From a bacterium (lineage in GTDB: Bacteria; Zhuqueibacterota; Zhuqueibacteria; Residuimicrobiales; Krinioviventaceae): DNA of 64,000 nt. The position numbers and the translations under genes were made by a program. The DNA lies in assembly GCA_963693055.1 (NCBI GenBank), contig OY843751.1, positions 1,440,001 through 1,504,000 on the forward strand. The letters run 5' to 3'. The notes under the pieces were generated by a model. The model was not told the DNA's origin. It did not search any database and was given only the letters and a program-made list of their open reading frames with translations. Below, one piece after another: positions 24,821 to 43,484 of this stretch. The first letter of the stretch is position 1. Every line of letters starts with the position of its first letter.

Positions 24821-25477
24821 TTATGATGGATTTTCATTTTTTACCAGATAGGCCCTGAAATGTGTTTCCCGGTTTACATGCATGCCCAGGAACCCAACGT
24901 CTTTGATATGTTGAAAACCAAACTTTTCGAGAATAAGTCGGATTTTGTTTTCGCTATGGCAAAAAATGGATAAGGATTTACCGGGAATTGATTGGTCTTG
25001 TACGGTTATTTTTTGATAATTTTTATCCTGATGGTCAATGAGAGAAAAGGTAAAGTACCCCTCTTTTTTTAAAATTCTACTTGTCTCCTCAAAGATGGGG
25101 GAAAGGTCCTCGAATAAATGAAATACTCCCGCGCATGTTATATGGTCCATGGAATTGTTGGCGTAGGGATAGGGTGTGTTGAGCATATCGTGATTTTTAT
25201 AGTTTTGGATGGTCCCTTTTTCTGCACAAATGTCGAGCATATTGGTCGAGTAATCCATACCATGAATAACAAGCCCGGCTTTTTGAAATAGAACGGATGA
25301 GAGCCCCGTACCAATGCCCAGATCTAAAAGCGTTTCTCCCGGATTGGTAAACGCATAAGAGAGTCCGAATAAAATTTCCGGCACTACCCATTTCGATTTT
25401 TGGGCTTTTTTATCATAATTTTGAGCATGGTTCTTTGAGTCAAATACGTGTTTTATTTTTTCATTATTGTTAAGCAT
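24821..25477 (-). CDS. Class I SAM-dependent methyltransferase
   Basis: LLDLGIGTG, GMDYSTNML and RILKKEG motifs. Confidence 0.88.
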   Translation of the reverse strand: MLNNNEKIKHVFDSKNHAQNYDKKAQKSKWVVPEILFGLSYAFTNPGETLLDLGIGTGLSSVLFQKAGLVIHGMDYSTNMLDICAEKGTIQNYKNHDMLNTPYPYANNSMDHITCAGVFHLFEDLSPIFEETSRILKKEGYFTFSLIDHQDKNYQKITVQDQSIPGKSLSIFCHSENKIRLILEKFGFQHIKDVGFLGMHVNRETHFRAYLVKNENPS

Positions 25478-25535
25478 TCTTTTGTCCCGATTTTGCGAAT
25501 TGCTATTAATCTCTTTTATTAGGATATATTAATGC

Positions 25536-25560
25536 AAAACCGGCTGATACAGCCGGTTTT
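25536..25560. terminator. Intrinsic terminator/hairpin after lipoprotein gene
   Basis: AAAACCGGCTG-ata-CAGCCGGTTTT. Confidence 0.7.
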
Positions 25561-25573
25561 CACATTTTTACAG

Positions 25574-26797
25574 TTATTTGAATTCAACAAAGGAAAATGG
25601 ATAGCCTTCAGTTGTTACCGTTGCTGAAGAACTAGCCTCGCCTTTTGAGGGATTAAATGTATAAAATCCGTTAGAAGATGTTGTCGCTAATCCCAAAACA
25701 ATTTGATCTTTAAACGTTCCAACGGCTGTACCGTAAATGTTGCTATTGGCGAAATTCAGTTTTGTTATTGTTTGTGCCTCAAGGTCAATTTCAACCGGAA
25801 CAACGGTTCGGTCTTCAATATAATTAACCGGATTACTATAATATGCCGGAATATTGGCCGTACCGTAAAGTTTGCCATTGCCATAGTATCTGACTGCATG
25901 TATATAATCCAACGTATTTTCTTCACCGTTGATTGCTGTAGTGTTAAAGATAAACTTGTAGTTGTCGTCAAATTCAGTTTCACCAGACTTGATTCTGAGT
26001 ATGCCTGATTTGTGTCCCGATACTGCACCAAATCCACCGATGCAAACAATATAAATGTCATTGTTTTCATCCATAAAAATTGAATACGGATCAATAGGTC
26101 TTGTAGGTGTTGAAATTCCGGAAGCACTTTCGGTGATCATTTTTACAACTTTATTGGTATCAATATTAATGATTATCACATCGGAATAGGGGCGGTCAGG
26201 TGCAGGGTAATATCCGCCCACCATTTGCGACAGTGCAACGAACAAATAGTTATCACGAATTAACATTGATGAAGGGTCCGGATTTTGATCACCTGCTCCA
26301 AAAGAGCTTAAATCAATTTCAGTGACCATTTCCATCTTTTCATGGTTAACGACCAGTATTTTCCCTAAAGCAGAACAAGATACAAAAGCTAAATCTCCAT
26401 GGGTTACAACGTTGGTTGCGCCTGATGAAGCCGGCAGGGTCAACTTGCCTTGTTTTGCCAGTTTTCCGCCCGACCTTGAATATTTTGTCATATCATCGGT
26501 TTCGCCACCCCAGCCGGGAAGTATGAATATATTGTTACCACACACAACGGGTGCGCTGCTAAAGGAGATGGGTATTGCCGTTTCGTTTGTTAATGCTTTG
26601 ACTTCCAAATTGTCAATAAGCTGCATATATGCAGAGCCAGACATACCATCAGGATTTGGAAGCATTGTGCTTATTAGTATATTTCCTTCACTACCGGAGA
26701 CAATAGGATTAGTAACTTTATCATCGCTGCAAGAAGTGAATATTAACATAGCTATAATAGAAATGATTAAAACAAGAGTATTGAGTTTGGTCCGCAT
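25574..26797 (-). CDS. Surface lipoprotein, beta-propeller type (partner of TonB receptor; DUF4374-like)
   Basis: Lipobox FTSC; lies directly downstream of a TonB receptor; ILRIKSGETEFD motif. Confidence 0.65.
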   Translation of the reverse strand: MRTKLNTLVLIISIIAMLIFTSCSDDKVTNPIVSGSEGNILISTMLPNPDGMSGSAYMQLIDNLEVKALTNETAIPISFSSAPVVCGNNIFILPGWGGETDDMTKYSRSGGKLAKQGKLTLPASSGATNVVTHGDLAFVSCSALGKILVVNHEKMEMVTEIDLSSFGAGDQNPDPSSMLIRDNYLFVALSQMVGGYYPAPDRPYSDVIIINIDTNKVVKMITESASGISTPTRPIDPYSIFMDENNDIYIVCIGGFGAVSGHKSGILRIKSGETEFDDNYKFIFNTTAINGEENTLDYIHAVRYYGNGKLYGTANIPAYYSNPVNYIEDRTVVPVEIDLEAQTITKLNFANSNIYGTAVGTFKDQIVLGLATTSSNGFYTFNPSKGEASSSATVTTEGYPFSFVEFK

Positions 26798-26821
26798 TAT
26801 ATGCTCCTTTTGGGTTTTGTT

Positions 26822-29197: not shown

Positions 29198-30005
29198 TTC
29201 TAATATAAATCATGTGGCATACGCCCAATATATCAGGAATGGCCAGACCAATCTTTTGAGACAGGGGCAATCCTTTTTTCATCCCTTTATACATGGGAAA
29301 TGCGTCAACCACTCTTAATCTGTTGTCCCATTTTTCAAGGGATTTTATGGGTTTCAGTCCCCATCCGCCATCCATTGACATACCCATACCGCCTTTTTTC
29401 AATACTTGTTTTTCAGCAATTTTCATTGCCATGGGAGACAGGGAGTCAAAGAAGAAATCACACTCTTTAAAATAGTCTGCTGCTTTAACGAAAAACGTTT
29501 TGATCTGTTTTTCATTGAAATACATAAACACACCCCCGGCCAGAAACAGTAAACCGTTCTTTGCGTTGATTTTTTCAAACCATTCAGTATCTAAAAATGA
29601 AGAAGCAATGCTTTTATGTCTATCGCTGTCTTTATAAAAATTTGCCCGGAGCGCAATAACGTCTGGCAGGTCAAGCTCATAAAACATGATTTTGCCATTA
29701 TCAATACGACTAAATGTAGTGTCCAGCCCGCAGCCTATATTGACAATCGTAGCGTTGGGATGTTTTTTCATAAAGCCGCGGACTTTTCTGTCCGTGTGCA
29801 AGCTGCGCGCTATCCAGCCATGTTGCGACATGGATTGTGTTTTGGCTATGGTTGAAAAATCATAATCTAACCTTTCAATGATTTCAACCGCCTTTTTATC
29901 CATAAGGCGGGGCCTGTTTTTTAGGGTTTCAGTTGCCCTGCCCCATAAAGGGAGCAACAGGGTTTCTTGCACGTTGCCTTTTGGGATTTGTATTTTGGGT
30001 TCCAT
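29190..30005 (-). CDS. LCM/TcmP-like class I SAM methyltransferase
   Basis: VQETLLLPLWGRA, VNIGCGLDT, YELDLPDVI and AGGVFMY motifs. Confidence 0.88.
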   Translation of the reverse strand: MEPKIQIPKGNVQETLLLPLWGRATETLKNRPRLMDKKAVEIIERLDYDFSTIAKTQSMSQHGWIARSLHTDRKVRGFMKKHPNATIVNIGCGLDTTFSRIDNGKIMFYELDLPDVIALRANFYKDSDRHKSIASSFLDTEWFEKINAKNGLLFLAGGVFMYFNEKQIKTFFVKAADYFKECDFFFDSLSPMAMKIAEKQVLKKGGMGMSMDGGWGLKPIKSLEKWDNRLRVVDAFPMYKGMKKGLPLSQKIGLAIPDILGVCHMIYIRIE

Positions 30006-30017
30006 ATTTTTTTCCTT

Positions 30018-30566
30018 TTAAAAGAACAATAAATACCTTGGGACTTTATGTTTAAATTCCCTGTAACTATTACCATATTTTTCCATGCAAAACTTTTCTT
30101 CTTCAAGAATAATAAAGTGCTGCAATATCAGGTTCATTATCAGGAATATTGTTATTAGTGCAGAATGGCACATTAATGCCATACCAAATCCCATGAGTGA
30201 AATTGAAACGTATATGGGATTGCGAGAAATTTTATACATCCCTTTGCAAATTGTCTGGTCAAGGGGTGCTGAGAAATAATTGATAAAACTGGTAATGGCT
30301 AAAATTCCTGACAAAATAAAGAGTACCAAGCCTGTATAGAAAAAAAATGTACCTGTCTGGATTTTTAGAAATATGGGATAGACAAGCATCAGGATGAAAA
30401 GGAGCATAATGAAAAATGAATTGATTTTTCCCATAGTGCTTGCGAAGGTAAAGTCTACCAGACGCTTTGCAGCCTTGCCGCCAAAAAGCATTGGCGCGTA
30501 TGATACAGCCAAATAAATTAAACTTTGAATCCAACCGTTACCGATTTCAATTCCAAACATATTCAT
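30018..30566 (-). CDS. ICMT/PEMT-family membrane methyltransferase
   Basis: KGMYKISRNPIY...EEKFC..KYG..Y..F...VPRY. Confidence 0.85.
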   Translation of the reverse strand: MNMFGIEIGNGWIQSLIYLAVSYAPMLFGGKAAKRLVDFTFASTMGKINSFFIMLLFILMLVYPIFLKIQTGTFFFYTGLVLFILSGILAITSFINYFSAPLDQTICKGMYKISRNPIYVSISLMGFGMALMCHSALITIFLIMNLILQHFIILEEEKFCMEKYGNSYREFKHKVPRYLLFF

Positions 30567-30608
30567 TTTACTCCTATTTTTTAAGTATTGGTTATTTTTG
30601 GTGAAAAA

Positions 30609-32348
30609 TTAATCAAGCACCGGCTGCATCTGTCGTTCCAACATTTTTGCAAAAATACCATTTTGAACTTTTAATTCGTGTGGTGGCCCGCTTTCAGCTA
30701 CACGACCGTTTTCAAGCACCACAACCTTGTCGGCATTGGCTACGGTGCGCATACGGTGAGCAATGATGAGTACGGTTTTGTCTCTAATTAATTCAGAAAT
30801 ACCGGCTTGAATTTTGGTTTCGTTTTCCACATCGAGCGAGGCTGTGGCTTCGTCAAGCAAAACAATAGGCGCGTCTTTGAGCAACGCGCGGGCGATGGAG
30901 ATGCGCTGACGTTCTCCTCCCGAAAGGGTTTCCCCGTTTTCACCAATGATTGTGTTGTAACCATTGGGCATTTTACTCACAAATTCATCGCACTGTGCCA
31001 GTTTGGCCACACGCACCACTTCTTCATCGGCCGCATCGCGCTTGCCGATGCGAATATTATCCATTACAGAGGCGTTAAACAAGACAACATCCTGGAATAC
31101 AACCGAATAGTTTTTAAGCAGGGTTTCCGGTTCAATTTTGCTAATGTCTTGACCGCCTAATGTAATATACCCTTTGTCTATATCCCAGAAACGGGCACAC
31201 AGCTTTGCCGATGTACTTTTACCACCACCTGAGGGGCCTACCAATGCGGTAATTTCTCCCTGTTTTGCAGTGAAAGAAATATCTTGCAAAACTTGTTTCC
31301 CTTCTTCGTAAGCAAAATCTACATTTTTGAATTGGATGTCATAATGCTCCGGCTTGAATATAGTGCTGCCCTTTTGAACGGGCAGATCCTGCATCTCGTT
31401 CATGCGGTTAATCCGAATGTCAAGATAAAACAATGCGGCAAGATTATTAAAGACCTCACTAATGGGGCTATAAACCCTGGTTGAAATCAAAAGGAATATC
31501 AGGTACATAAACAAATCAATAGTACCCGATGCCAACAGTGTTGCTCCTGTGATGACCACAGTTGCTAACCCCAGTTTGAGAAAACTTTGGGCTGAGTTAA
31601 CCAGACCACCTGCCAGTAATTCACCTCGTATTAGCTGTTTTTCATAATTGTACAGTTTTTTGTTCAATTCGGCGAGGTAGGGTTCTTCCTGGTTATAAGA
31701 CTTGATTTCTTGTATGGTATCGAGTCCTTCTTGGATATGTTCGGTCACATCACGTTTTTTGTTGTAATGGATTTGGTTTTCTTTGTGTAAAATTTTCTTT
31801 GCGATAATTATGATTGCCGCCGCCAGCGGGGCCACCCAGAACAGGGCAAGTGACAACTGCCAGTTGTAGAAAAACATACCAATGGCTATTAAAATAATAC
31901 TAAGAATAGAAGCCGCAAGCTGCGGTACCGCGTGAGAAAAAGTATGTTCCAGCTCGGTATTGTCTTCCATGATTGTAGCAGTAAGATCAGACAGGTTTTT
32001 TTCACCAAAGAATGCCAGAGGCAGGATGCGCAGTTTTTCCGCCAGTGAAATACGACGGTTCGCGCTTTCATTGTATATGGTTGTAAACGTGCTTTTATAT
32101 TGCAGTATTGCAATAATATACATAACCAGCATAAAACCAATACCAAGTAAAAAATAGTACCATAAACCATGCGCAACTGTGGATGATGGAATAAGCACAG
32201 GACGCAAATAGTCGTCAAGAAACAGGAAAAAAAGAATAGCCGGCAGCATGAGTGCTATATCCAGGAGAGTGGTGAAAAACACTCCTTTCAAAAAGTCTTT
32301 TGCCCCTTTTTCTGAAAGGGCCAATCGTTTTTGTATAATTTTAAGCAT
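30609..32348 (-). CDS. ABC transporter fused permease/ATPase (YbtQ/IrtB-like)
   Basis: TM domain + GPSGGGKS, LSGGERQRI and LLDEATASLD motifs; likely start 32348. Confidence 0.9.
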   Translation of the reverse strand: MLKIIQKRLALSEKGAKDFLKGVFFTTLLDIALMLPAILFFLFLDDYLRPVLIPSSTVAHGLWYYFLLGIGFMLVMYIIAILQYKSTFTTIYNESANRRISLAEKLRILPLAFFGEKNLSDLTATIMEDNTELEHTFSHAVPQLAASILSIILIAIGMFFYNWQLSLALFWVAPLAAAIIIIAKKILHKENQIHYNKKRDVTEHIQEGLDTIQEIKSYNQEEPYLAELNKKLYNYEKQLIRGELLAGGLVNSAQSFLKLGLATVVITGATLLASGTIDLFMYLIFLLISTRVYSPISEVFNNLAALFYLDIRINRMNEMQDLPVQKGSTIFKPEHYDIQFKNVDFAYEEGKQVLQDISFTAKQGEITALVGPSGGGKSTSAKLCARFWDIDKGYITLGGQDISKIEPETLLKNYSVVFQDVVLFNASVMDNIRIGKRDAADEEVVRVAKLAQCDEFVSKMPNGYNTIIGENGETLSGGERQRISIARALLKDAPIVLLDEATASLDVENETKIQAGISELIRDKTVLIIAHRMRTVANADKVVVLENGRVAESGPPHELKVQNGIFAKMLERQMQPVLD

Positions 32349-34113
32349 ATTGTGTTTCCTTCCCAATAGTCCAATGCACGGATTGTTGATATTCATTCCA
32401 CATGTTTGTATAGAGGCCCTCTTTTTTCAGTAGTTCCTGATGGCTCCCTTGTTCAACGATCTGCCCCTTTTTAATGACCAGTATATTATCAGCATTCTGT
32501 ACGCTGGTAAGCCGGTGGGCAATCATGAGTACGGTTTTGTTTTTTGTCAATTTTTGTAGTGCCATTTGAATGAGATGTTCGTTTTCAGGATCTGTAAAGG
32601 CTGTTGCTTCATCCAAAACAACGATTGGGGCGTTTTTCAGAATGGCCCGCGCCAATACAATACGCTGCTGCTCACCACCCGACAGATAGGTGCCCTCGGT
32701 ACCAATCCGGGTATTCAATCCGTCAGGCAATTTGTTGATGATTTCACGACATTGGGCCCAATCAACAGCCTTTTCCACATCATTTAACGGGGCATTCGGA
32801 TTTCCATATTTGATATTTTCCAGCAAGCTGGTTTTAAACAAACGCGTATTTTGGAATACAAATGAGATGTGCTCCATCAGTTCTTTGGGGGCAATATCCT
32901 TAACATTCACACCACCGATGCAAACTTGCCCTGCATCAGCATCACGGAAGCGGGGTAGCAGGCGAGCTATGGTTGTTTTGCCTCCACCGGAAGGCCCTAC
33001 CAGTGCTACAGTTTTCCCTTCAGGAATGTTGAAATGTGCATTGTCTACTGCCTTTTGGTTTGCACCGGGGTAACTGAACGAGACATTTGTAAAGCTGATC
33101 TCGTGGCCGGTAATGTTTTGGGGGGTATCGGAAACGGATAGAGGTTTGGTATTGGTCAGGTTTTCCACACGAGTCACAGCTTCTCTTGCCTGGCCCAGGG
33201 CCTGGTTCAGGTACATGCTGCGCATAATGCTTTGTGAAAAAACAGGAGTGATCAATATATAAAGAAACAGGTTTAACAGGTTGCTTGTGTAATTACCCGA
33301 ATGGTTTATGAGCAGGATGGCCGCCGGTACCAGAAAGAAAATAAAACCATTTATTATAACCGTATAGGCAGACATGGGTTTTTCCCACATATAAGTATAG
33401 CCGGATACCATTTCCTTGTAATTGACAATGCTGTTGTAAAAGTTTTTGAAAGAAAATACGGTTTGTTGAAATACCTTAACAACAGGAATACCGCGTACGT
33501 ATTCTACGGCCTCTGTATTCATTTCTTCAAGAGAATCCATATATTTTTGCATAAAATGTTGTCCTCGTTTGCCCATCATAAATCCCATTATTGCCATAGA
33601 GAGTATAACGGGCACAAGACAGGCTAAACCGAGCCGCCAGTCGAACACAAAGATTAGAGCAAGGGCTGTGAAGGGCATCAGGATTGTACCGATAAGGTCT
33701 GGCATTTGGTGGGCCAGAAAGGAGTGGGTGATGCCGGCATTCTCATCAATGATTTTTCGGATACGTCCGCTTGTATTACTGTCAAAAAATCCCAGGGGCA
33801 TATGTATAATTTTATGCATGGCATATTTACGCATGTTGGTTTCTACCCTGAACGCTGCCAGATGCGAGAGCGTCAATGCGCAAAAATACATTATGATACT
33901 GGCAATTGCCGTAACCACTGCCCACCACGCTAAAGTACTGACAAGGGCAGCCGAATATGTTGTTCTGCCGGATAATAATTCACGGACAATAAACCATATT
34001 AGAATGTATGGCGCCATTCCCGTTAGCGTACTGATTGCGGATGCAACCAGTGCCCCGGGCAGCAGGGCTTTTCTGCCCGTCATAAAAGTTTGTAGTTTTA
34101 ATAGTGTATTCAT
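32341..34113 (-). CDS. ABC transporter fused permease/ATPase (YbtP/IrtA-like)
   Basis: LSHLAAF, LAHQMPD, EYVRGIPVVK, GPSGGGKT and LSGGEQQR motifs; likely start 34113. Confidence 0.9.
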   Translation of the reverse strand: MNTLLKLQTFMTGRKALLPGALVASAISTLTGMAPYILIWFIVRELLSGRTTYSAALVSTLAWWAVVTAIASIIMYFCALTLSHLAAFRVETNMRKYAMHKIIHMPLGFFDSNTSGRIRKIIDENAGITHSFLAHQMPDLIGTILMPFTALALIFVFDWRLGLACLVPVILSMAIMGFMMGKRGQHFMQKYMDSLEEMNTEAVEYVRGIPVVKVFQQTVFSFKNFYNSIVNYKEMVSGYTYMWEKPMSAYTVIINGFIFFLVPAAILLINHSGNYTSNLLNLFLYILITPVFSQSIMRSMYLNQALGQAREAVTRVENLTNTKPLSVSDTPQNITGHEISFTNVSFSYPGANQKAVDNAHFNIPEGKTVALVGPSGGGKTTIARLLPRFRDADAGQVCIGGVNVKDIAPKELMEHISFVFQNTRLFKTSLLENIKYGNPNAPLNDVEKAVDWAQCREIINKLPDGLNTRIGTEGTYLSGGEQQRIVLARAILKNAPIVVLDEATAFTDPENEHLIQMALQKLTKNKTVLMIAHRLTSVQNADNILVIKKGQIVEQGSHQELLKKEGLYTNMWNEYQQSVHWTIGKETQYA

Positions 34114-34331
34114 ACATTTCCCTTTTTCTAATAATATCAATCTGTTTCCATGTTTGTCATCATTTGTTATTTTTGTATGTATTGGGATAGCTATGCCTTG
34201 CAACCGGTTTCGTAGCCAATCGTAATACCTGGTGTTTTAATGTGTCAAAGGTCGGCATTCTACACAGATTTTTTTGTGTTTATACTATCGCTATTGTTTT
34301 TGTATTATTTCTTATGATTTTGATTGATAAA

Positions 34332-35543
34332 TCAAAAGCTGTATTTGGCCTTTATCCATATTTCTGAATTATCATTATATTGCCCAAACATACCTGTTTC
34401 ACCTGAAAAAACATCAATCCCCAGCAACAGGTGCATTTCATCTGTCAATGCATAATCAGCACTGTTTCGATTGAAAAAGTTGTTTCCATCAAGACCTATG
34501 TACGAAAATGTAGAAAGTTTTAATGTGCTTCTAAATAGCAATTTTGATATATTTAAGGTGGAAAGCCAGGTGTGTTCCTGTGCCTCAAGATCTGCATGAT
34601 GGTCAAGCACCATTTCGTCTGTTAACTGCGTGCTGATTGTCCATTCATTACCCGGATACCAATCCAGGCCTGCCAGGGCTGAAACGGAATTTCTTTGTGA
34701 CAGAGTCAGCAAGTCTTTATGCTGATATTTTTTATCAATGTAATAAGCAGCTTCTCCGCGCAGAACAAAAGCGCCCATTGAACAAGACATGTCTGCACCT
34801 ACAAATCCGTATCGATAGTATTCTTGTGAAATATGAGCAGTTTTACCGTTTGGCGTAATTTGCAATACCGGGAAATCACTCCAGGTGTATAGTGATGAAA
34901 TAGAGATATCCAAGCCGTGCAGATAAAATGACACCCTGGCGCCGATTTCGCTATTGTCAATAGTCTGTTCCGGTTCGTCAACCTCCAGCATATTGACCGT
35001 ATCATATTCTGAAAAATCCGGCCCTTCCTTTGCCCAGGGATTGTCCTCGCCGGGCATGATGCCCTTTTGAAAGATCGGCAGCCAAATCAGTTCCGCGTCC
35101 ATGCTTTCACCTAAATATCGAAATTTGAAAGCGTCCACCGGCATGCGAACATCGTCATAATCGCGTGCCAGGAATTCTGTTAGATCGTATGGTGAGATAT
35201 AATCAGTAATTCTCATACCGTCAGCCTTTCCCCAAATGATGATCTGGCGGCCAACTCGAAGATCGAAATTATCGCCCACATAGTCAAAATAGGCTTCCCG
35301 AAGTTCAATGCCGGTCTGGTCTGGCAAAACATAGTTGTGCATGGCATTGAGAGATACAAACAGGCTGGTAGTATTAAAATTGTTTGTTGCTTCAATGCGC
35401 AGTCTGTTGCGGGACGCAAGGTAATCGTTGGGCGCTTTGATGCGCACCGCGTGATAGCTGTCCGAAAAACCGTTTACTTCCATTTGCGCAAAAAGCGTTG
35501 CGGCATAGAGTAAGCAAAACATGATTGTGGCGAGTATTTTCAT
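34332..35543 (-). CDS. Outer-membrane beta-barrel protein (DUF1302-like)
   Basis: Signal peptide; LREAYFD..LRVGRQIIIWGKADG; C-terminal KYSF. Confidence 0.75.
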   Translation of the reverse strand: MKILATIMFCLLYAATLFAQMEVNGFSDSYHAVRIKAPNDYLASRNRLRIEATNNFNTTSLFVSLNAMHNYVLPDQTGIELREAYFDYVGDNFDLRVGRQIIIWGKADGMRITDYISPYDLTEFLARDYDDVRMPVDAFKFRYLGESMDAELIWLPIFQKGIMPGEDNPWAKEGPDFSEYDTVNMLEVDEPEQTIDNSEIGARVSFYLHGLDISISSLYTWSDFPVLQITPNGKTAHISQEYYRYGFVGADMSCSMGAFVLRGEAAYYIDKKYQHKDLLTLSQRNSVSALAGLDWYPGNEWTISTQLTDEMVLDHHADLEAQEHTWLSTLNISKLLFRSTLKLSTFSYIGLDGNNFFNRNSADYALTDEMHLLLGIDVFSGETGMFGQYNDNSEIWIKAKYSF

Positions 35544-36328
35544 CGTAAACGTCCCCGTTCAAGTGTGGAAACCGTCAACAAATTGTCTTTGACGCCAATG
35601 TTGTACTCTATTTCCTGCATCTCCAAAATGGTTTTATGTTTTTCTTTGTGATTGTCCATATACCATTTGAAAATGGTCCATATACCATCCTTTTGACGGA
35701 TGTCCGGCAAAGTAAGGGTTTTCATCAGTTTTCCTTGTCTGTCATAGTATTCCACTTTGATGGCGACCACGGCGTCTTTTCTGATCCAGCGGAGCACTTT
35801 GGAATACATGTATGATTTGTCTTTGGGGGTAGATTCAACAAGCCAGCAGTCTTGCTCATCAATAGTTTCTTCTTTGAGCAGTATGTGATTGTCTTCATCA
35901 ACCGCACGGTCGCCCATATCGTCATAGGTAAAGTCGCTGCCCATAAAGTAATCGTTTTTGGACGATCCGGAAATACGGCGCACTTTTTTTAACGCAGGCA
36001 AATAGAGCCAGCGGTCATCATCTTTGGATGGATCATTGTATTCCCAGGACAAAAATCCACTGCCTTTGACGTCCGCAGGTTTTTGAAAATACATGATGCT
36101 TTTGGTGTCTTTACCGTAATCCTTGGAATATGACAGGATGGTCCGTTCGCGGGTTTTGCCGCGCTTGTTTTCCAGAATCATGTGCATGGTGGATTTGCGG
36201 TCGTCACCATTTGGCCGGTCATCAACCATTTGCATGATTTGTTGCCCGTTCAATCCAGTTTCTTGCGCCAAACCAAGGCATGTTGAGAATAATACCAGTA
36301 AAAACGATGTGAGTACTAGTCGTTTCAT
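35540..36328 (-). CDS. Outer-membrane lipoprotein-sorting (LolA-like) protein
   Basis: PADVKGSGFL...DDRWLYLPALKKVRRIS...FMGSDFTYDD signature. Confidence 0.88.
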   Translation of the reverse strand: MKRLVLTSFLLVLFSTCLGLAQETGLNGQQIMQMVDDRPNGDDRKSTMHMILENKRGKTRERTILSYSKDYGKDTKSIMYFQKPADVKGSGFLSWEYNDPSKDDDRWLYLPALKKVRRISGSSKNDYFMGSDFTYDDMGDRAVDEDNHILLKEETIDEQDCWLVESTPKDKSYMYSKVLRWIRKDAVVAIKVEYYDRQGKLMKTLTLPDIRQKDGIWTIFKWYMDNHKEKHKTILEMQEIEYNIGVKDNLLTVSTLERGRLR

Positions 36329-36342
36329 TTTTTTCTCCTTTT

Positions 36343-37272
36343 TTATACGTTAAAGCTGCCCATGAAAAAGGCAATGCCAAATAAAACCAAAAATAATGCG
36401 CCAATGGCAGACACCCATTGATAGATCTTGGTGTAACTTTTTGAGTCTATGGAGGTGATTTTTAGCACCAGCTGTTTTGAGAAAATGGCTATCAGGCCAA
36501 TGATGAAAATGGTGATGCCCATTCCCAGGATGATGAAAAAGACCGAGGCCAGCCCCACGTTGAACAGATTCATGGACGCCAGGTAGGTCACAATGATAAT
36601 GGTACCCGGACAGGGCACAATCCCGGTGCTTAGCACAAAGGGCAATGTCTGTTTCCATGAATTTTGCGGAATATCGTGTGAATGGGAATGAGAATGCTGC
36701 TTGCCGGCAAGAATTCTGTAAAATAGCCATGCGCCAATAAAAATCATGATCAGATAGCTGATTTGGGTCATGAGTACTGAAATGTTTGAATTTTCCCAGT
36801 ACATGGATGTAAACTTTTCAAGCACAAACAGAATGATTACCGCAACCAGCAAACCTGACATAGCGTGTACGGTTGCAATGGCATAGCTGATGAATACTGC
36901 CCTTTTGATGTTTGGCCGTTCGGTGAGGATGTATGAAAAGATAAAAATCTTGCCGTGTCCCGGTCCCATTGAATGGAGGATGCCGTAAATGAACGCCAGA
37001 AAGAAAAGAACCATTATGGCTTTGACGGATTCGGTACTTTTGTAATCTCTTGCCAGGCTGCTCAATTTGTGCTTGATGATGCGCTGGAATTCCGCGTTTT
37101 TCTTTATAAATTGGTTCAATAACGGAATCTGAAGACCAGAGTTTCTCTTTTTAACGGTTTGTTGAACCGTCACAGTATCCGCATTGTCATCCGGCGTTAA
37201 AAATGGATTGGTTTGAGCGGATACGGATTGAATAAATACAACAAAAAGAATATATAATAGGTAACGTTTCAT
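36343..37272 (-). CDS. Nickel/cobalt transporter (NicO/RcnA-like)
   Basis: YGILHSMGPGHGK, HSHSHSH loop and GIVPCPG motifs. Confidence 0.88.
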   Translation of the reverse strand: MKRYLLYILFVVFIQSVSAQTNPFLTPDDNADTVTVQQTVKKRNSGLQIPLLNQFIKKNAEFQRIIKHKLSSLARDYKSTESVKAIMVLFFLAFIYGILHSMGPGHGKIFIFSYILTERPNIKRAVFISYAIATVHAMSGLLVAVIILFVLEKFTSMYWENSNISVLMTQISYLIMIFIGAWLFYRILAGKQHSHSHSHDIPQNSWKQTLPFVLSTGIVPCPGTIIIVTYLASMNLFNVGLASVFFIILGMGITIFIIGLIAIFSKQLVLKITSIDSKSYTKIYQWVSAIGALFLVLFGIAFFMGSFNV

Positions 37273-37866
37273 CTACCTGCCTTTAATGTGTGCTACAAGT
37301 GCTTCGGGATGGATTTGACCCTGGTAAAATGTCTGGCTTTTGTCTTCACCAACAAGATGATTGATTGACCAGTTTTTTGCAGAGATAAATTCCACCGTCT
37401 CTTTGTTAATTGTAGTGGATAAAAAATAGTTGGGATCATAAGCTGATACTTTGATGAAATTGTCAACTTTGTTCAATTTGATCTTGGTATTGAGTGAAAA
37501 AGAGTAAACCAGTTGACCATCAACGACACTCGCTTTGAAATCTGACACTGAACCATGTTCAATATTTTTGTCTTCAAGTTGGACGAAAATGAAGTAACTA
37601 AATCTACGCAGGTTGACAAAGGCTTTGGTGTATAGCACAGATGATTCCTGTTCATCAAATATTTTGTTTTGATCAGTGTCAAATTCACTAATAAGACCCT
37701 GGCTGTACATTGGATCTAGCGTGTATTTTATCTTGAATCCATCTATGCCCTGCTCACAAAAAACCACACCAATGTCTACATTCATAAAGACATGGGGGTG
37801 ACTGTGACCCAAGGGCGCGGTGAACAGAACTGTTGAAATAGAGAGAAATAATATTTTTTTTAACAT
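37273..37866 (-). CDS. DUF1007-family periplasmic protein
   Basis: Signal peptide followed by HPHVF; YDPNYF; adjacent to the NicO-like gene as is usual for this family. Confidence 0.85.
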   Translation of the reverse strand: MLKKILFLSISTVLFTAPLGHSHPHVFMNVDIGVVFCEQGIDGFKIKYTLDPMYSQGLISEFDTDQNKIFDEQESSVLYTKAFVNLRRFSYFIFVQLEDKNIEHGSVSDFKASVVDGQLVYSFSLNTKIKLNKVDNFIKVSAYDPNYFLSTTINKETVEFISAKNWSINHLVGEDKSQTFYQGQIHPEALVAHIKGR

Positions 37867-37899
37867 GAGTGCAACCAGAATAATATCCTTTTATTCTAA

Positions 37900-40227
37900 T
37901 TAAATGTCGAATGATAATACTGTTTTGACATTCCTACCCATGGCTGGTATATAAGAGCCGTAGGGCAAATAGTCCAAATCAAAGATGTTTTTTACAACAA
38001 TACGTAATTTGGGACAGCCGGGTAATGAGTTTGAGTTCAAGGCCAGCATACAGTTGAACAGCAGGTGTTCGTCCGATGGCTCATAGCCCCAGGGACCACC
38101 GTCGCTGCCTTTCGGAATATCGGCAATACGGTCCTGTTTCGCGGCATATTCGGCTTGCAGTTTTATGGTGTAACCGGTCATCCAGTTGCAGTTTAACAGA
38201 CCGTGATATTTCAATTCACCGGTTAATTTGAGCGGCGGAATACCGAACAAGGGTGCGTCATCCTTTTCCGCTGCTTTATCAATACCGTAAACGTAAGCAC
38301 CGCCTAACCCAATGTAAAGATCACTCAGGGGGGTGTACACATGTTCAAAACGGTATGCCAGGGAAAACTCGCCACCGTAAATAGTAGCATCAGTGTTTTT
38401 ATAGGTAAAATCAACATCCGGAATATCATCCGCGGGCATTTCATTGATGTAATCATCCATGTCATTGTAAAACAGGGCAAAATCGTAACGCAGTTTTTCC
38501 CGGTTGGCCATACCGCGTAGACCAACATCCAGGTTCCAACTGTATTCGGGTTGCAGATCGGGATTCCCCAGTTTAGTGCCTTTGCAGCTTATCACCTCGG
38601 TAAACATTTCTTCGGCTGTGGGCATGCGGAATGCACGGCCCAGGTTAACTGACCAGTGCATATTTGCTGTCTGCGAATAGACGAAACCTGCGTTACCGCT
38701 GACTGCGTTACGTTCTTCCTTGCGTTCTGTTTTGTCAATGTACTCGCCTTCGTTAACTGTTGCCGCATCGTACCTTACGCCAGAGATCAGGCGAAAGCGG
38801 GGGCCAAGCTGCCATTCATCGCTCACAAACGCGCCAATGTTCATTTGGCCCGCGTCAATATAGCCGGGCAAATCTCCCGTTGTATTGTAATAGTAATCAA
38901 TCATTTCCGAGGGATTGTCCAGTTGAAAGGCATATCCGTCGATACCCGCGGTCAATTTGTTTGCCTGGTACAAGTTAAAGATGGTAAACAGTTGACCACC
39001 CCCATACTTGTCATCATAATGAACCAGTTCCAATGATGACAAGTTATTTGAAACCGTGCTGTACTTGTATTTGTAATAATCCCTGGTTCCCTGATCGTAA
39101 TAGAGGTTGAATTGTACAGTTTGTACAAAGCCGTCAAGAGTCCACGCATAGTTGATAGCGCTGTGCAGACGCTCTTCTTCATTGCGTATTTCGGTATACG
39201 CTTTGCTGGGTCCGTTGAATCCGCGCGGTTTACCCCAGTCGCCTTGGTGGCCATTAACTTCCAGCGTCACCTTTTGTTTTTCAGAAAAGCTGTAACCAGT
39301 TGTTAAAGACATGTCCTTGTCTTCAACATCGCTGTTTTCAGCATCCTCACCATTGCCATATACCAAGTCTCCTGTTTTTCTGTATTTACCGTTCAGAGAG
39401 ATTCCAAATTTGGGGTTTTGTTGACAAACGCGCACCACCTGTAAAAATTCATTGTTGTTGCTGCCGTAACCGGAAAGTGACTTTGCGGTTGTTCTTTTGG
39501 GTCCGAGTGGCGGTTTGTTGATGACGTTAATAATGCCCGAGATTGCGCCGCTGCCGTAAATGACCGATCCCGGGCCTTTGATGATCTCTACTTTTTGGGC
39601 GTCGTAAATGTTCATGTCTTGCGCAAAATATCCGCCGGGAAAAGTGCCAATACGACGGTTACCGTTTTGCATGACCACCAGGCGTTTGGAATTCATACCG
39701 CGCAGCAACAGGGGCGAGTGATACTCCCAAACCTGGGTGAATCCCGGGGTTGCGGCCAGCATGTCCGTCATGTTGGATTGCATCTGGTCAGAAATTTGCC
39801 GCCGTGTGATGACCGTTGCCGGTTTTGACAATTTATTAAGAGGCTGCTCATAAAGTGCGGCAGAAACAACAACATTGTGCATTTTTATGACTTTGGAGGT
39901 CATGAAAATGTTTAACGGTTTTTGGGACAGGGACTGGTCAACAACAATCTCTTTTTTGACATAACCGATATGCGAAAAAATGATTCGCGGTTTATGTGAG
40001 GTGGGGAACTCTAATCTAAAGTTTCCATCCTGGTCTGTTGTGGTTCCATGGGGACTGTTTTGGATAGAGATGTTTACTCTGCTAATGGATGTTTTGTTTT
40101 CGACATCCATAACCGTGCCCGTAACAGTAAATGTTTCCCGGGCAACACAAGGATTGTTTATAAGAACTGTGCAGAGTAGAACAGTTAGTGTCGATAATAG
40201 TTTTATCATTTTAATATTGTGTTTCAT
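37900..40227 (-). CDS. TonB-dependent receptor
   Basis: VEIIKGPGSVIYGSGAISGIINVI plug motif; GNPDLQPEYS; likely start 40227 (ORF track 40290). Confidence 0.92.
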   Translation of the reverse strand: MKHNIKMIKLLSTLTVLLCTVLINNPCVARETFTVTGTVMDVENKTSISRVNISIQNSPHGTTTDQDGNFRLEFPTSHKPRIIFSHIGYVKKEIVVDQSLSQKPLNIFMTSKVIKMHNVVVSAALYEQPLNKLSKPATVITRRQISDQMQSNMTDMLAATPGFTQVWEYHSPLLLRGMNSKRLVVMQNGNRRIGTFPGGYFAQDMNIYDAQKVEIIKGPGSVIYGSGAISGIINVINKPPLGPKRTTAKSLSGYGSNNNEFLQVVRVCQQNPKFGISLNGKYRKTGDLVYGNGEDAENSDVEDKDMSLTTGYSFSEKQKVTLEVNGHQGDWGKPRGFNGPSKAYTEIRNEEERLHSAINYAWTLDGFVQTVQFNLYYDQGTRDYYKYKYSTVSNNLSSLELVHYDDKYGGGQLFTIFNLYQANKLTAGIDGYAFQLDNPSEMIDYYYNTTGDLPGYIDAGQMNIGAFVSDEWQLGPRFRLISGVRYDAATVNEGEYIDKTERKEERNAVSGNAGFVYSQTANMHWSVNLGRAFRMPTAEEMFTEVISCKGTKLGNPDLQPEYSWNLDVGLRGMANREKLRYDFALFYNDMDDYINEMPADDIPDVDFTYKNTDATIYGGEFSLAYRFEHVYTPLSDLYIGLGGAYVYGIDKAAEKDDAPLFGIPPLKLTGELKYHGLLNCNWMTGYTIKLQAEYAAKQDRIADIPKGSDGGPWGYEPSDEHLLFNCMLALNSNSLPGCPKLRIVVKNIFDLDYLPYGSYIPAMGRNVKTVLSFDI

Positions 40228-40336
40228 TACCTGGCCTTTATTTATGTTGTAAATCTGCTCACATCTTGAAATTTGCATATTAAACCGCAACCACCGCCCG
40301 AAAATCAGGACTAAATGGTTGCGATTTCAGGAAGGA

Positions 40337-41029
40337 TTAGTCAAGAAAATCCCATTCAACTGCAATATATCCGGTTGAGGTTGGAGCAGGGTCAGCCGGA
40401 AAATCGGTAACAATCATTTTTATTTGACGGCCTTCACTGGTTTTGATGACCCAAACCAGTTCGTCACCTTCCACGTTATTGTTTGCTGTAGATTTGAATC
40501 GCAAACCAATAACCAGTTTTTTGTATTCGTTTTCCAAATCGCTTTTATAATGTTTGCCAGTGTTGCCGGTGGGCAGTGCATCCAGATCAAAACCGACGTC
40601 ATCAGATTGATATGTAAAAGATTGCAGGTTTGCTTCTGTGAGGTTTTGGAAAGCGGTATAACCAACGCAGTTGGTATCTATGCTGCTATAATTGATTGCC
40701 TGAACGTTATCTGCAAGTTTGAAAAAAGGCATACCAGCCAAAGTACCATCCGGCTTTTCACCTTTGATGGTGCGAATGATTGCATCTGCAGTAAAATCAA
40801 TGACACTCAAAGAGTCCATAAAGTTTGCGCCGCCTCTGTTACTATCATATTCAAAATCAAAACCAACACCGCCGGGATTTCTGTTGGCGCAGATCAGGTA
40901 GGGTGAACTTTTTGCTTCAAAGATTTCAGTATCAGTTCCTACGACGTTGTTGTCAGCATCATCCGAACAAGCAGAGAAGATGACAAGTAAGCCAATTAAC
41001 GCGATAGAGATCAGATGTTTCAGTTTCAT
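40337..41029 (-). CDS. Lipoprotein, HmuY-like metal/ligand-binding candidate
   Basis: Lipobox SAC; C-terminal VWVIKTSEGRQIKMIV resembles the HmuY-type end; lies upstream of a TonB receptor. Confidence 0.5.
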   Translation of the reverse strand: MKLKHLISIALIGLLVIFSACSDDADNNVVGTDTEIFEAKSSPYLICANRNPGGVGFDFEYDSNRGGANFMDSLSVIDFTADAIIRTIKGEKPDGTLAGMPFFKLADNVQAINYSSIDTNCVGYTAFQNLTEANLQSFTYQSDDVGFDLDALPTGNTGKHYKSDLENEYKKLVIGLRFKSTANNNVEGDELVWVIKTSEGRQIKMIVTDFPADPAPTSTGYIAVEWDFLD

Positions 41030-41050
41030 TTTTTAACTCCTGATTTTAGG

Positions 41051-41605
41051 TTAGTTTATTATTAAAAATAGTATTGGTATTAACACGCCTATACCTGTTA
41101 GCACAGCGCCCCTTCCTGTAATACTATTTTTCCCTTGATTTATAAAAAGACCGGTAAAGGCTATCAATATCAATGAAATACAAAACAGGTCAGAAAACCA
41201 TGTCCATACTTTGCCCGGATTGTAATGCAGAAAATTCACCTGGTGGAATATGGGGCGCCTTTTAATTTTTTCAAGCACACCCTGGCCCGTGACCAAATTC
41301 AGATCAATATTTCCGTTTTTAATAAAAATCTTTAATTGATCACCTTGCGGTTTATAAAATTTTTTGTAATTTTTCTTTTCACCATACAGGTCTAGAAATT
41401 CCAAAACCTGACCCTCTGTGATTGGATTGTCGTTTTGCAAGTATGGCCAAATCACATCCCGCGTTGTTATGTTGTAACTGGGATTCCAATCGTTTATGTG
41501 ATTGAGGGCAATCCCGGACAAGGCGTAAATTATGGTTAGACCGAAAAAAAAGTAGCCAAGATCACGATGCAGTACGCGGTTCCATTTTCTCCAATTTATT
41601 GTCAT
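41051..41605 (-). CDS. PepSY-associated TM helix protein
   Basis: WRKWNRVLHRDLGYFF..SGIALNH, NFLHYNPG..WTWFSD. Confidence 0.85.
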   Translation of the reverse strand: MTINWRKWNRVLHRDLGYFFFGLTIIYALSGIALNHINDWNPSYNITTRDVIWPYLQNDNPITEGQVLEFLDLYGEKKNYKKFYKPQGDQLKIFIKNGNIDLNLVTGQGVLEKIKRRPIFHQVNFLHYNPGKVWTWFSDLFCISLILIAFTGLFINQGKNSITGRGAVLTGIGVLIPILFLIIN

Positions 41606-41617
41606 AATAGTATACCG

Positions 41618-42175
41618 CTAGTTTAATTCTTCAAATGTTTCACATTCCATACTGTAAAATGAAATAAAGTCTTTATCGCTTTTTGCAAGCCGTTCACGAA
41701 ACATTTTAATTTGGTTAGAGGCGTTTTCGTGATGATCGTCAACCTCTCCTGCTGTCTGAGCATGGTCGTGCTCGTGACCTTCATGTGCCACCTCTGGTTC
41801 GTGCTCATTTTCAAGTTCACTTTCCCAGTTATCCAGGAATGCCTGATCCACTTTTTGTTCCTGGATTACGCCTGTGACTTGCACGTTGCTGCCTTCCAGT
41901 TCAATATCGAATGAACCGATTTTTTTTCCTGCGGTTATTTTAAACCGGGATTCCGGTTCATTACCAATGATAAACATCCGCTTGCCGCCATGTTTGCACA
42001 CATGAACAACAGTCCCCTTGACGGTTACGTTGGTCCCAACAAATTCTGCTGCATTGGTTACCAGGTTGTGTACAGTTTGCAGGGCAGCAGATTGCACTTT
42101 TTTTTCTTTTTGGGTACATGAAATAAAACTTGAAATCAGCATTAATCCGAGCACCATTCTTGAAATGTTTTTCAT
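41618..42175 (-). CDS. His-rich lipoprotein with OB-fold-like domain
   Basis: Lipobox FISC; VKGTVVHVCKHGGKRMF; HEGHEHDH tract. Confidence 0.7.
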   Translation of the reverse strand: MKNISRMVLGLMLISSFISCTQKEKKVQSAALQTVHNLVTNAAEFVGTNVTVKGTVVHVCKHGGKRMFIIGNEPESRFKITAGKKIGSFDIELEGSNVQVTGVIQEQKVDQAFLDNWESELENEHEPEVAHEGHEHDHAQTAGEVDDHHENASNQIKMFRERLAKSDKDFISFYSMECETFEELN

Positions 42176-42498
42176 TTTGCCTCTCTAGTTTTGTAAAGTT
42201 TATTTATTTGTAACTCTTTGTTGGTTGCGGTTTGAATCACCTGGAAAAAACAGGTGAAATCCTCGTTGGAGACATGCAGGTCAACTGCGCTAATAGATAT
42301 TTTCAAGATGTTTTTGGATTTATATTGATCTTCCATTGCCTCAAAATCATAAGCATGGCTTGCTATATCAAAAAGTGTGACTCTGCTCCCGTGCAGGGAG
42401 ACATTTTGATATAGCAAATGGAAATTGTTGCAACAATTATATTTCGTAACAGCGCAATTGTTTTTTTGAGCTAATATGACTTGGTCATGACTGGCCAT
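42172..42498 (-). CDS. Hypothetical protein
   Basis: GGAG RBS before the ATG; stop overlaps the next start; no recognisable motif. Confidence 0.35.
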   Translation of the reverse strand: MASHDQVILAQKNNCAVTKYNCCNNFHLLYQNVSLHGSRVTLFDIASHAYDFEAMEDQYKSKNILKISISAVDLHVSNEDFTCFFQVIQTATNKELQINKLYKTREAK

Positions 42499-42740
42499 GT
42501 ATACATCTCCATTATTATAGAATTTTACACAAATCTGTATTGGTGCCCAATCTCAATAATTAAGCGCAAGCAAAACCAGGTTCGCTAAACATGGATGAAA
42601 TGAACCAATAGAACCTGGTACAATGATAATTGCTGAACATGAATGCGTATTGCATTTTTGGGTATTCAGTTGGTTTTTGCAATAAATGCAAAACACCATA
42701 AATCATCACTTGCCAGTTTAACCAGAGATTGATTTTTAGA

Positions 42741-43127
42741 TTATGAAAATGTAAAAAATGGAGGGGCCCTTAAAGAGAAAAGGCCATTGATGTATTGATT
42801 GAAGAATTTGTTAAAATATAAAGGGGCATAATTTTTAAATTGCAAAATAATGCCAATTAAAAGGAGGATTAATACTGAAAAAGATAAAACGGAAGAGATG
42901 AAAAGAAACAAGAGTTCAAACTCTGAATGCGAATGGTTCAGTTTACCGGAATTTGCAGAATCCCCACCCGAATTCACCAGATGACTGTGGCAAATGAGTT
43001 GTCCATCGGGTAATACATGAATATGTATGAATGCAGAATTGAATCCTAAATGCAAAACAAAAGAAACAATAAAGATGAGAAACAGAAAGTTACTTTTGTT
43101 TCTTGTTTTTATATCTTGTTTTTTCAG
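42741..43127 (-). CDS. His-rich membrane leader peptide ending in LRAPP (DUF2946/CruR-like arrest-peptide candidate)
   Basis: TM - HIHVLPDGQLICHSH...HSHS - TM - LRAPPFFTFS*. The frame is open upstream of the TTG at 43055 to a possible CTG at 43127. Confidence 0.65.
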   Translation of the reverse strand: MKKQDIKTRNKSNFLFLIFIVSFVLHLGFNSAFIHIHVLPDGQLICHSHLVNSGGDSANSGKLNHSHSEFELLFLFISSVLSFSVLILLLIGIILQFKNYAPLYFNKFFNQYINGLFSLRAPPFFTFS

Positions 43128-43208: not shown

Positions 43209-43366
43209 ACAATTTATTAATTTTTTCAATTTTATGCAAATACTTTTTTATAATAAATCATAAAAAAATGGCAGTTTGAAAATCGGTCAAAATTTTAAAA
43301 ATAGTTATTTACTGAAATGGCTTTTATGTTTTCTGAATTTCTTGTCACGTGTCCCCATAAAACAAC

Positions 43367-43391
43367 AAAAGCCCCTTAATAAAGGGGCTTT
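43367..43391 (-). terminator. Terminator downstream of tRNA-Arg
   Basis: AAAGCCCCTT / AAGGGGCTTT hairpin with flanking A/T tracts, ~16 nt past the CCA. Confidence 0.7.
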
Positions 43392-43407
43392 CAGTTATTG
43401 TTTTTAC

Positions 43408-43484
<77 letters not shown>

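What the first reader, a model, noticed from the sequence alone, without database searches (positions are those of the whole stretch)
42640..43127. His-rich RAPP leader peptide: candidate metal-sensing ribosome-arrest regulator of the whole island
Seen: the first ORF of the island encodes TM1, HIH..CHSH..HSHS, TM2, a linker of about 20 residues and then LRAPP five codons before the stop. Its N-terminus is reachable only from a non-ATG start (CTG 43127, or a nearby ATT/ATA). Downstream are overlapping alternative hairpins (42671-42698 versus pairing with 42650-42657). Known: RAPP motifs cause ribosome stalling (ApdA/ApdP), and Bordetella CruR (DUF2946; CxxC plus RAPP) controls a TonB receptor in response to copper. 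Inference: this is a histidine-based counterpart sensing Ni, Co or Zn.
Basis: partly seen in the sequence, partly recalled or inferred. Interest (0 to 1): 0.7.

Follow-up and report, generated by a model that had tools for sequence, protein, structure and literature searches.

The report
Six-histidine RAPP leader lacking ATG
A small membrane-protein gene with six conserved histidines and the ribosome-stalling ending Arg-Ala-Pro-Pro heads a metal-transport island; its family likely acts as a metal-sensing translation switch, but this copy has no normal start codon and may be weakly made or dead.

Summary
The ORF is real (42741-43151, minus strand) and is the first ORF of a 23.7-kb island bounded by 42-bp tRNA-Arg repeats. 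It belongs to a large family with no Pfam model: TM1, HxH..HxH..HxH, TM2, R(A/G)PP. 62 of 64 genomic relatives keep R(A/G)PP. In 137 database relatives the last His lies 50-58 residues before the Arg (53 here). The next non-leader gene is a TonB receptor for 41 of 64 and an unknown 440-aa protein heading ZnuA/ABC-3 operons for 15 of 64. Likely mechanism: default arrest keeps uptake on; periplasmic metal bound by the His cluster helps pull TM2 into the membrane and releases it. Stalling and the metal (Zn best guess) are untested. Corrections: the cited alternative hairpin has about zero probability. This copy alone of 65 has no ATG/GTG/TTG; ATA 43112 aligns with the best homologue's Met, so start loss is plausible. 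Control of the whole island is unsupported. Not new in kind: CruR and CutF work this way, His-only CutF-like clusters were already proposed to sense Ni/Co, and look-alike proteins sit untested in Fujiwara 2025 source data. This scan found the family before on other DNA.

The parts
42741..43127 (-). His6/RAPP leader ORF (128 aa from CTG 43127; 123 aa from ATA 43112); no ATG or GTG in frame
43110..43112 (-). ATA codon at the position of the initiator Met of the best database homologue (P0009) and of P0012, 29 codons before His35; candidate former ATG or non-canonical start
   Evidence: ungapped register; start-context percentile 0.88, SD energy +0.4 kcal/mol
43125..43127 (-). CTG candidate start, 34 codons before His35, within the family mode of 32-34
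   Evidence: (percentile 0.94, SD -2.4)
43029..43088 (-). TM1 / signal anchor after a Lys/Arg-rich N-terminus (predicted N-in)
42927..43025 (-). His cluster H35-H37, H47-H49 (predicted beta-hairpin) and H65-H67; predicted periplasmic
42837..42920 (-). TM2, about 25-52 residues upstream of the P-site Pro when RAP is at the peptidyl transferase centre
42759..42770 (-). RAPP codons AGG GCC CCT CCA; CCTCCA is also complementary to the downstream Shine-Dalgarno
42671..42698 (-). stable hairpin inside the 242-nt intergenic region; predicted not to switch
42496..42511 (-). SD (TGGAG) and ATG of the first downstream gene; predicted paired to the RAPP-coding region in free mRNA (P 0.82-0.87) and to a local hairpin when that region is blocked
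19885..42498 (-). 22 co-oriented listed ORFs: PepSY_TM-like, weak HmuY-like lipoprotein, two TonB-dependent receptors, DUF1007 + NicO/RcnA-like, LolA-like + DUF1302, two ABC half-transporters, MMPL, several methyltransferases
43366..43393 (-). terminator-like hairpin after tRNA-Arg, predicted to insulate the leader from the tRNA promoter
43408..43484 (-). tRNA-Arg(TCT); its 3' half (43411-43452) is the island's left repeat
19738..19779 (-). 42-bp copy of the tRNA 3' half (41 of 42 identical), the island's right repeat

Best explanation
This ORF is a member of a large, unnamed family of two-helix, six-histidine leaders ending in R(A/G)PP that likely act as metal-sensing ribosome-arrest switches for uptake operons, and this copy lacks a canonical start codon, so it is likely either weakly initiated at ATA/CTG or recently inactivated. 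Shown: the motifs, their fixed spacing, the gene context and the missing ATG. Inferred working of an intact member: TM1 targets the ribosome to the translocon with the N-terminus inside, and the HxH/HxH hairpin is exported. [quoted passage not shown] At that moment TM2 has just entered the zone where membrane insertion pulls on the chain (its N-end about 46-51 and C-end about 28 residues from the catalytic centre), and the third HxH is reaching the periplasmic face. Without metal the pull is too weak, the stall persists and the uptake genes stay on, by hiding a C-rich Rho-loading stretch and/or freeing the downstream SD from the CCUCC of the Pro-Pro codons. With metal, binding likely joins the third HxH to the hairpin, adds pull, releases the ribosome and turns uptake off. 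Metal, my odds: Zn 0.4, Ni/Co 0.3, Mn/Fe 0.2, other 0.1. Odds that this copy is still translated enough to regulate: about 0.45.
For: 62 of 64 non-redundant genomic homologues have R(A/G)PP in the last 25 residues; a profile built without the tail region finds 51 hits outside its seed loci, 49 with R(A/G)PP. In 148 short database homologues, 147 have three HxH, 138 have RxPP in the tail, 1 has CxxC; last His to Arg is 50-58 residues in 137, mostly 52-55. In the 128-row alignment H35, H37, H49, H65, H67 and P123 are invariant and H47, R120, P122 at least 90% conserved, against 20% mean column identity. N-terminal net charge is positive in 98% and TM2 ends a median 28 residues before the P-site Pro (n=134). 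TM helices pull from when their N-end to when their C-end is about 45 residues from the PTC (PMC7886326, passages). First non-leader downstream gene: TonB receptor 41 of 64, unknown 440-aa protein 15 of 64 (ZnuA follows in 13 of those 15), other 6, none on contig 2. RAPP arrests with RAP in the P site (PMC10951233, passages), and RAPP/RGPP arrest in many contexts (PMC12992588 sections 13, 15). First Pro codon is CCT in 29 of 63 against 72 of 263 other Pro codons of the same leaders (Fisher p=0.006, kin not independent). The last about 45 codons have C/(C+G) 0.74 here against a genome 99th percentile of 0.63; Rho is present.
Against: No experiment on any member was found. RAPP alone is not sufficient for arrest (PMC12992588 Discussion). 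This copy has no canonical start while 64 of 64 relatives do; the island has no integrase of its own among its annotated ORFs, and its last gene is split into two frames, consistent with decay. The predicted SD switch is weak here: blocking the footprint eases SD opening by only 1.2 kcal/mol, and a control footprint 33 nt upstream gives 1.4. Across 59 loci, own-SD pairing beats cross-locus pairing (p=0.0007), but so does the control segment (p=0.00015), so this is compositional. Most of the C-over-G bias comes from the amino acids (family mean 0.636 vs 0.607 for synonymous resampling). Some look-alikes in the Fujiwara list precede RND efflux adaptors, so the direction may differ among members. 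2 of 64 relatives lack R(A/G)PP in the last 25 residues (L070 has RGPP further from the stop; L090 has RAPP only in another frame).
Confidence: 0.65

Rival explanations
1. This copy is a dead leader: an ancestral ATG became ATA (or CTG), no ribosome enters, and the island is silent by default or driven by another promoter.
For: Only one of 65 members without ATG/GTG/TTG. ATA 43112 is in ungapped register with the Met of P0009 and P0012 and is one transition from ATG, with no SD (+0.4 kcal/mol) in a genome where 70% of 181 unambiguous starts have SD energy of -3.4 or lower. No integrase inside the island; a split O-methyltransferase at its far end. Leader detached from the family's usual receptor.
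Against: All motifs, spacing (53) and both TM segments are intact, with no stop or frameshift. CTG 43127 scores at the 94th percentile of this genome's start contexts, though AT-richness inflates that score. A long-lived stall could tolerate rare initiation (inference).
Confidence: 0.45
2. The leader is an arrest peptide that monitors membrane insertion or Sec capacity (SecM/MifM/ApdP-like), and the histidines are structural or secondary.
For: TM2 sits where insertion force acts; known RAPP peptides monitor protein localisation (PMC10951233); downstream genes are envelope proteins.
Against: Six His are the most conserved residues besides RAPP; neighbours are metal-uptake genes, not sec/yidC; the nearest subfamily follows a DtxR/MntR-type gene.
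Confidence: 0.15
3. Metal strengthens the stall (CutF-like) and switches on export or detoxification, with the island's NicO/RcnA-like protein and ABC half-transporters acting as exporters.
For: CutF works this way (bioRxiv 10.1101/2025.02.05.636593, abstract and passages). Weak NF007454 nickel/cobalt efflux hit, 49 bits against a cut-off of 195. Some listed look-alikes precede RND adaptors.
Against: 56 of 64 relatives precede TonB receptors or ZnuA/ABC-3-type import operons; the island itself carries two TonB receptors.
Confidence: 0.12
4. It is an ordinary small metal-binding membrane protein of the uptake system, and RAPP has no regulatory role.
For: A confident helix-hairpin-helix model (mean pLDDT 82, pTM 0.55) is compatible with a stable protein.
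Against: RAPP/RGPP are strongly avoided in proteomes and enriched in leaders; position first in the operon with 20-500 nt spacers; fixed His-to-RAPP distance.
Confidence: 0.08

Closest known systems
CruR (Bp2923, DUF2946/PF11162), Bordetella pertussis; PMC9426467 (passages and section 9 read)
   Same: Small exported leader ORF; C-terminal RAPP a few codons before the stop; metal-ligand motif at a fixed distance; long spacer; TonB receptor and PepSY_TM gene downstream; C-rich region suited to Rho.
   Different: No CxxC (1 of 148 homologues); six His in three HxH; spacing 52-55 from the last ligand versus 45 intervening residues; a second TM helix between ligand and RAPP; no PF11162 match for the query and 1 weak match (E=0.0019) among 128 members. 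CruR's signal peptide is dispensable, whereas TM1 is kept in 97% here.
CutF (DUF2946-like), Rhodobacter capsulatus, and His-only CutF-like SSN clusters 14 and 17; bioRxiv 10.1101/2022.11.11.516240 (passages) and 10.1101/2025.02.05.636593 (abstract, passages)
   Same: Co-translationally exported nascent sensor with a periplasmic metal site and a Pro-rich stall; output through an SD-hiding stem; His-only variants already proposed to sense Ni or Co.
   Different: CutF uses CxxxC and an EF-P-sensitive PPP, and Cu induces the stall. The His-only clusters are described next to HupE/UreJ, not TonB/ZnuABC. Whether another of the 29 clusters is this family could not be seen (bioRxiv supplements closed).
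TonB-related RAPP/RGPP uORFs of Fujiwara et al. 2025 (PMC12992588; sections 13 and 15 read, source-data file 8 searched)
   Same: The source list holds many 'hypothetical' proteins with HxH..VHSHP..HxH..RAPP before TonB receptors ('IVHSHP' 92, 'VVHSHP' 15, 'IVHAHP' 10 occurrences in the stored, cut file). By inspection they have the same layout.
   Different: In the two sections read the paper does not single out this His6/two-TM family or test it; its His/Cys metal-sensor suggestion concerns two Streptomyces peptides. Membership of the listed proteins was judged by eye, not by alignment.
ApdA / ApdP / SecM arrest peptides (PMC10951233, passages)
   Same: RAP/P core near the C-terminus of a membrane-targeted leader.
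   Different: They head sec/yidC genes and sense translocation; no conserved metal site.

Membership tests
DUF2946 / CruR | CxxC copper motif | tested here: not met
   Absent in the query; 0 of 64 genomic and 1 of 148 database homologues
DUF2946 / CruR | Match to PF11162 above threshold | tested here: not met
   No Pfam hit for the query; 1 of 128 members at E=0.0019. An Atlas feature score of 0.92 to a cluster with 40% DUF2946 is a lead only.
DUF2946 / CruR | C-terminal RAPP at a conserved distance from the metal motif | tested here: met
   Last His to Arg 50-58 in 137 homologues, 53 here; the value differs from CruR's 45
DUF2946 / CruR | First gene before metal-homeostasis genes, with a long spacer | tested here: met
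   242-nt spacer; TonB receptor or ZnuA/ABC-3-type operon for 56 of 64 relatives
DUF2946 / CruR | Rho-dependent termination controlled by ribosome occupancy | tested here: inconclusive
   Rho present; C/(C+G) 0.74, z=2.1 over synonymous null here, family mean z 0.75
RAPP-type arrest peptides (ApdA/ApdP class) | R-A/G-P-P near the C-terminus of a small membrane or secreted leader | tested here: met
   62 of 64; TM1 above KD 1.6 in 97%
RAPP-type arrest peptides (ApdA/ApdP class) | Arg-dependent stall with RAP in the P site | not testable with these tools
   Needs toeprinting or profiling; no RNA holder was listed
RAPP-type arrest peptides (ApdA/ApdP class) | The ORF is translated | tested here: inconclusive
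   No ATG/GTG/TTG before TM1; CTG and ATA candidates
CutF type | Stem hiding the downstream SD, melted by the stalled ribosome | tested here: inconclusive
   SD pairs with the RAPP-coding region (P 0.82-0.87) but re-pairs locally; change -1.2 vs control -1.4 kcal/mol; family mean -1.4 vs -0.3, 23 vs 15 of 59 below -1
Unnamed His6/two-TM RAPP leader family | TM1-HxH-x9-HxH-loop-HxH-TM2-R(A/G)PP | tested here: met
   Query scores E=2.4e-29 on the A1 profile (which includes it); 281 representatives at E<=0.001 from the single sequence

The most novel reading that the evidence does not exclude
A widespread class of nascent-chain sensors in which a periplasmic six-histidine site, completed only while the ribosome is stalled, ratchets a second transmembrane helix into the membrane and releases RAPP arrest. 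This would give zinc (or nickel/manganese) uptake control without a cytoplasmic regulator, sometimes through tandem RGPP-then-RAPP leaders, and in this island tuned down by a non-AUG start.
Probability: 0.3. Interest if true: 0.75.

Novelty: new variant of a known kind. Interest (0 to 1): 0.45.

Why it matters
Metal-controlled ribosome arrest is shown, in the papers found here, only for copper with cysteine ligands (CruR, CutF), and the source of the force that releases such arrests is named as an open question (PMC12992588 Discussion). This family offers a sharply constrained test case: six nearly invariant His, a TM helix parked at the insertion-force window, and a spacing fixed to about two residues. 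Look-alikes occur in cultured Bacteroidales, so it is directly testable. This particular copy is a poor model because its start codon is abnormal.

Tried and rejected
Single-sequence word-index search found nothing; the profile search found 7. The first genome-contig scan with alignment A1 had no conserved stretch; A2 gave 10 loci. A metagenome scan with the 185-aa island protein gave no confirmed relative, so no close copy of this island was available to date the start-codon change. No RNA holder listed. Foldseek against PDB gave no match at E<=0.001. Upstream dyad ACATATAA-N8-TTATATGT (43182-43205): unique in the genome, and no shared dyad among 64 upstream regions, so rejected as a family operator. 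A dyad GTGTTA-N15-TAACAC lies before the genome's nikR; calling it a NikR box rests on recall. There is none within 2 mismatches in the island, at the four other RAPP leaders, or before 64 leaders. Cross-locus SD pairing test was confounded by base composition. The promoter scan was not above chance (4 found, 6.3 expected). The idea that DUF1007 + NicO equals ZevAB zinc uptake is recalled: the review read (PMC3417392, passages) gives no domain names and NCBIfam gave no hit for the DUF1007 protein. Ismail 2012 was not held. Paper searches; none returned a study naming or testing this family. Most subscription papers, four large files plus file 10 of the Fujiwara supplement, and bioRxiv supplements were not searched and could hold one.

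Full report
Observation. The minus strand carries an open frame 42741-43151 whose product from CTG 43127 is 128 aa: a basic N-terminus, TM1, HIH (H35, H37), CHSH (H47, H49), HSHS (H65, H67), TM2, a 22-residue linker, RAPP (codons 42770-42759) and five more codons. The frame has no ATG or GTG, and the first TTG (43055) is inside TM1. Contigs from three short-read runs of one sample match 42300-43464 without a difference, so the missing ATG is not a long-read error; that sample may be the assembly's own source. The ORF follows tRNA-Arg(TCT) and its terminator. A 41-of-42 copy of the tRNA's 3' half at 19738-19779 closes a 23.7-kb island, so 'first ORF of the island' is right. The integrase at 43517-44563 lies outside this island and likely belongs to a second element of about 60 kb that repeats the tRNA's 5' half. 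Named relatives are labelled candidate division KSB1, so the host is likely KSB1 (two other relatives there are labelled Cytophagia).

Family. No Pfam family matches and the one NCBIfam hit is below cut-off. Homologues appeared in related genomes. A 19-row profile then matched 46 of 167 genomes of the phylum, and a narrower profile reached Calditrichaceae, Zixiibacteriota, Ignavibacteriales and Bacteroidota records. A single-sequence HMMER search found 281 representatives at E<=0.001. Among 64 non-redundant genomic homologues, 62 have R(A/G)PP in the last 25 residues and 62 have three HxH; a profile without the tail found 51 hits outside its seed loci, 49 with the motif. Among 148 short database homologues (3 long hits dropped), 147 have three HxH, 138 have RxPP (109 RAPP, 18 RGPP, 6 RSPP, 5 RPPP) and 1 has CxxC; the last His lies 50-58 residues before the Arg in 137, mostly 52-55, and 53 here. 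In a 128-row alignment with 20% mean column identity, five His and the last Pro are invariant and H47, G42, R120 and P122 are at least 90% conserved. AlphaFold2 gives helix, beta-hairpin carrying H35/H37 and H47/H49, loop, helix (pLDDT 82, pTM 0.55), with no PDB fold match.

Context. The first non-leader gene downstream is a TonB-dependent receptor for 41 of 64 relatives (tandem leaders counted each), an unknown 430-490-aa protein for 15 of 64 (ZnuA follows in 13 of these, then ABC-3 permeases), something else for 6 and nothing on the contig for 2. The subfamily closest to this ORF sits directly behind a DtxR/MntR-type gene. The genome has a paralogue of that kind with ATG starts, plus three other His-rich RAPP ORFs. 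The island encodes two TonB receptors, a PepSY_TM-like protein, a weak HmuY-like lipoprotein, DUF1007 with a NicO/RcnA-like protein, two ABC half-transporters, an MMPL module and methyltransferases. Its first receptor is at most 28% identical to the family's usual partners, which in most loci share 40-72% with one reference member. Its first genes occur in 10 relative loci without this leader in the stretches fetched, several of them short contigs. So the leader-island link is not conserved, and control of the whole island is unproven, although 22 ORFs are co-oriented with mostly short gaps.

Start codon. All 64 relatives have ATG (60) or GTG/TTG (4) 24-37 codons before the first His; this copy has none. 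CTG 43127 (34 before) lies at the family mode and has a start-like context, percentile 0.94 with a weak SD of -2.4 kcal/mol; ATA 43112 (29 before) has percentile 0.88 and no SD. The best database homologue and P0012 have their Met exactly at the ATA position in an ungapped register, so a single ATG-to-ATA change is the simplest history. The island shows one other break: an O-methyltransferase split into a dimerisation frame and a catalytic frame, identical in short-read contigs. I put the chance that this copy still regulates at about 0.45.

Mechanism. [quoted passage not shown] Measured here: the N-terminus is net positive in 98% and TM2 ends a median 28 residues (10-90%: 20-32) before the P-site Pro in 134 homologues, with the hydrophobic stretch starting about 46-51 before it. 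Inferred: the His loop is periplasmic, TM2 is poised at the start of its pull, and metal that bridges the exported hairpin and the third HxH would add force and release the stall, switching uptake off. Direction is inferred from the import-type neighbours, as for CruR. The metal is open: ZnuA/ABC-3 suggests Zn or Mn, DtxR/MntR suggests Mn or Fe, NicO suggests Ni or Co, and no NikR-like dyad lies near any of 64 leaders.

mRNA output. A better candidate is pairing of the RAPP-coding region (CCUCCA) with the downstream SD (P 0.82-0.87), and CCT is enriched at the first Pro (29 of 63 vs 72 of 263, p=0.006, kin not independent). But here the SD re-pairs locally when freed (gain 1.2 kcal/mol, control 1.4). 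Over 59 loci the mean gain is 1.4 against 0.3 for the control, with automatically chosen starts, and the cross-locus test is confounded by composition. A Rho route is equally open: Rho is encoded and the last about 45 codons are C-rich (0.74; genome 99th percentile 0.63), mostly but not wholly because of the amino acids.

Comparison and novelty. It likely works like CruR (PMC9426467; passages and section 9) and CutF but is not DUF2946 by CxxC or by profile. His-only CutF-like clusters next to HupE/UreJ were already proposed to sense Ni or Co. Proteins with this very layout are listed as hypothetical RAPP uORFs before TonB receptors in the Fujiwara 2025 source data. Eight paper searches found no study naming or testing the family; unseen supplements could hold one. 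Earlier notes of this scan describe the same family in other genomes (33 findings hold the search words); their nickel/NikR lead was checked here and not met for these loci.

Verdict. A real member of an unnamed His6/two-TM variant of metal-responsive RAPP leaders. Interest 0.45.

Noticed in passing
L020, L022, L061, L062, L065, L071: Two leaders of this family in tandem before one TonB receptor, always an RGPP copy first and a RAPP copy second; possibly a two-step or two-metal switch.
   Followed up: no
G000 C1:552226-553207 (L028); also L013, L014, L016, L024, L096: The closest subfamily of leaders starts at or near the stop of a DtxR/MntR-type regulator gene with a Cys/His-rich tail (Pfam checked for L028 only).
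   Followed up: partly
G000 C1:2105178-2105516, 4987367-4987663, 2397332-2397757; L110:16198-16518: Other His-rich RAPP leaders of a different layout (HNH..HH(E/D)DCP; or a His-rich soluble loop) before receptor-sized operons and a likely RND efflux operon.
   Followed up: no
window 19885-20902 (-): O-methyltransferase split into a 132-aa dimerisation frame and a 208-aa catalytic frame; same in short-read contigs.
   Followed up: yes
window 43485-64000 and beyond, to G000 C1:1543248: A second element of about 60 kb repeats the 5' half of the same tRNA-Arg; integrase at 43517-44563, HTH protein, two weakly ClpP-like SDH proteases, a TerB-trypsin protein.
   Followed up: no
L018, L019, L023, L026, L072-L077, L079, L081, L084, L087, L088: A conserved 430-490-aa protein without a Pfam hit (the L019 copy ends in HKHEAY) heads ZnuA plus two ABC-3 permease genes behind the leader.
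   Followed up: partly
G000 C1:3121156-3121620: nikR with a perfect GTGTTA-N15-TAACAC dyad upstream, followed by a TonB-receptor-like ORF; one other perfect dyad at C1:2322478.
   Followed up: partly
window 43182-43205: Dyad ACATATAA-N8-TTATATGT overlapping a TTGACA hexamer upstream of the leader; unique in the genome and not shared by relatives.
   Followed up: yes
window 9608-10774 (-): IS4-family transposase above the NCBIfam cut-off.
   Followed up: no
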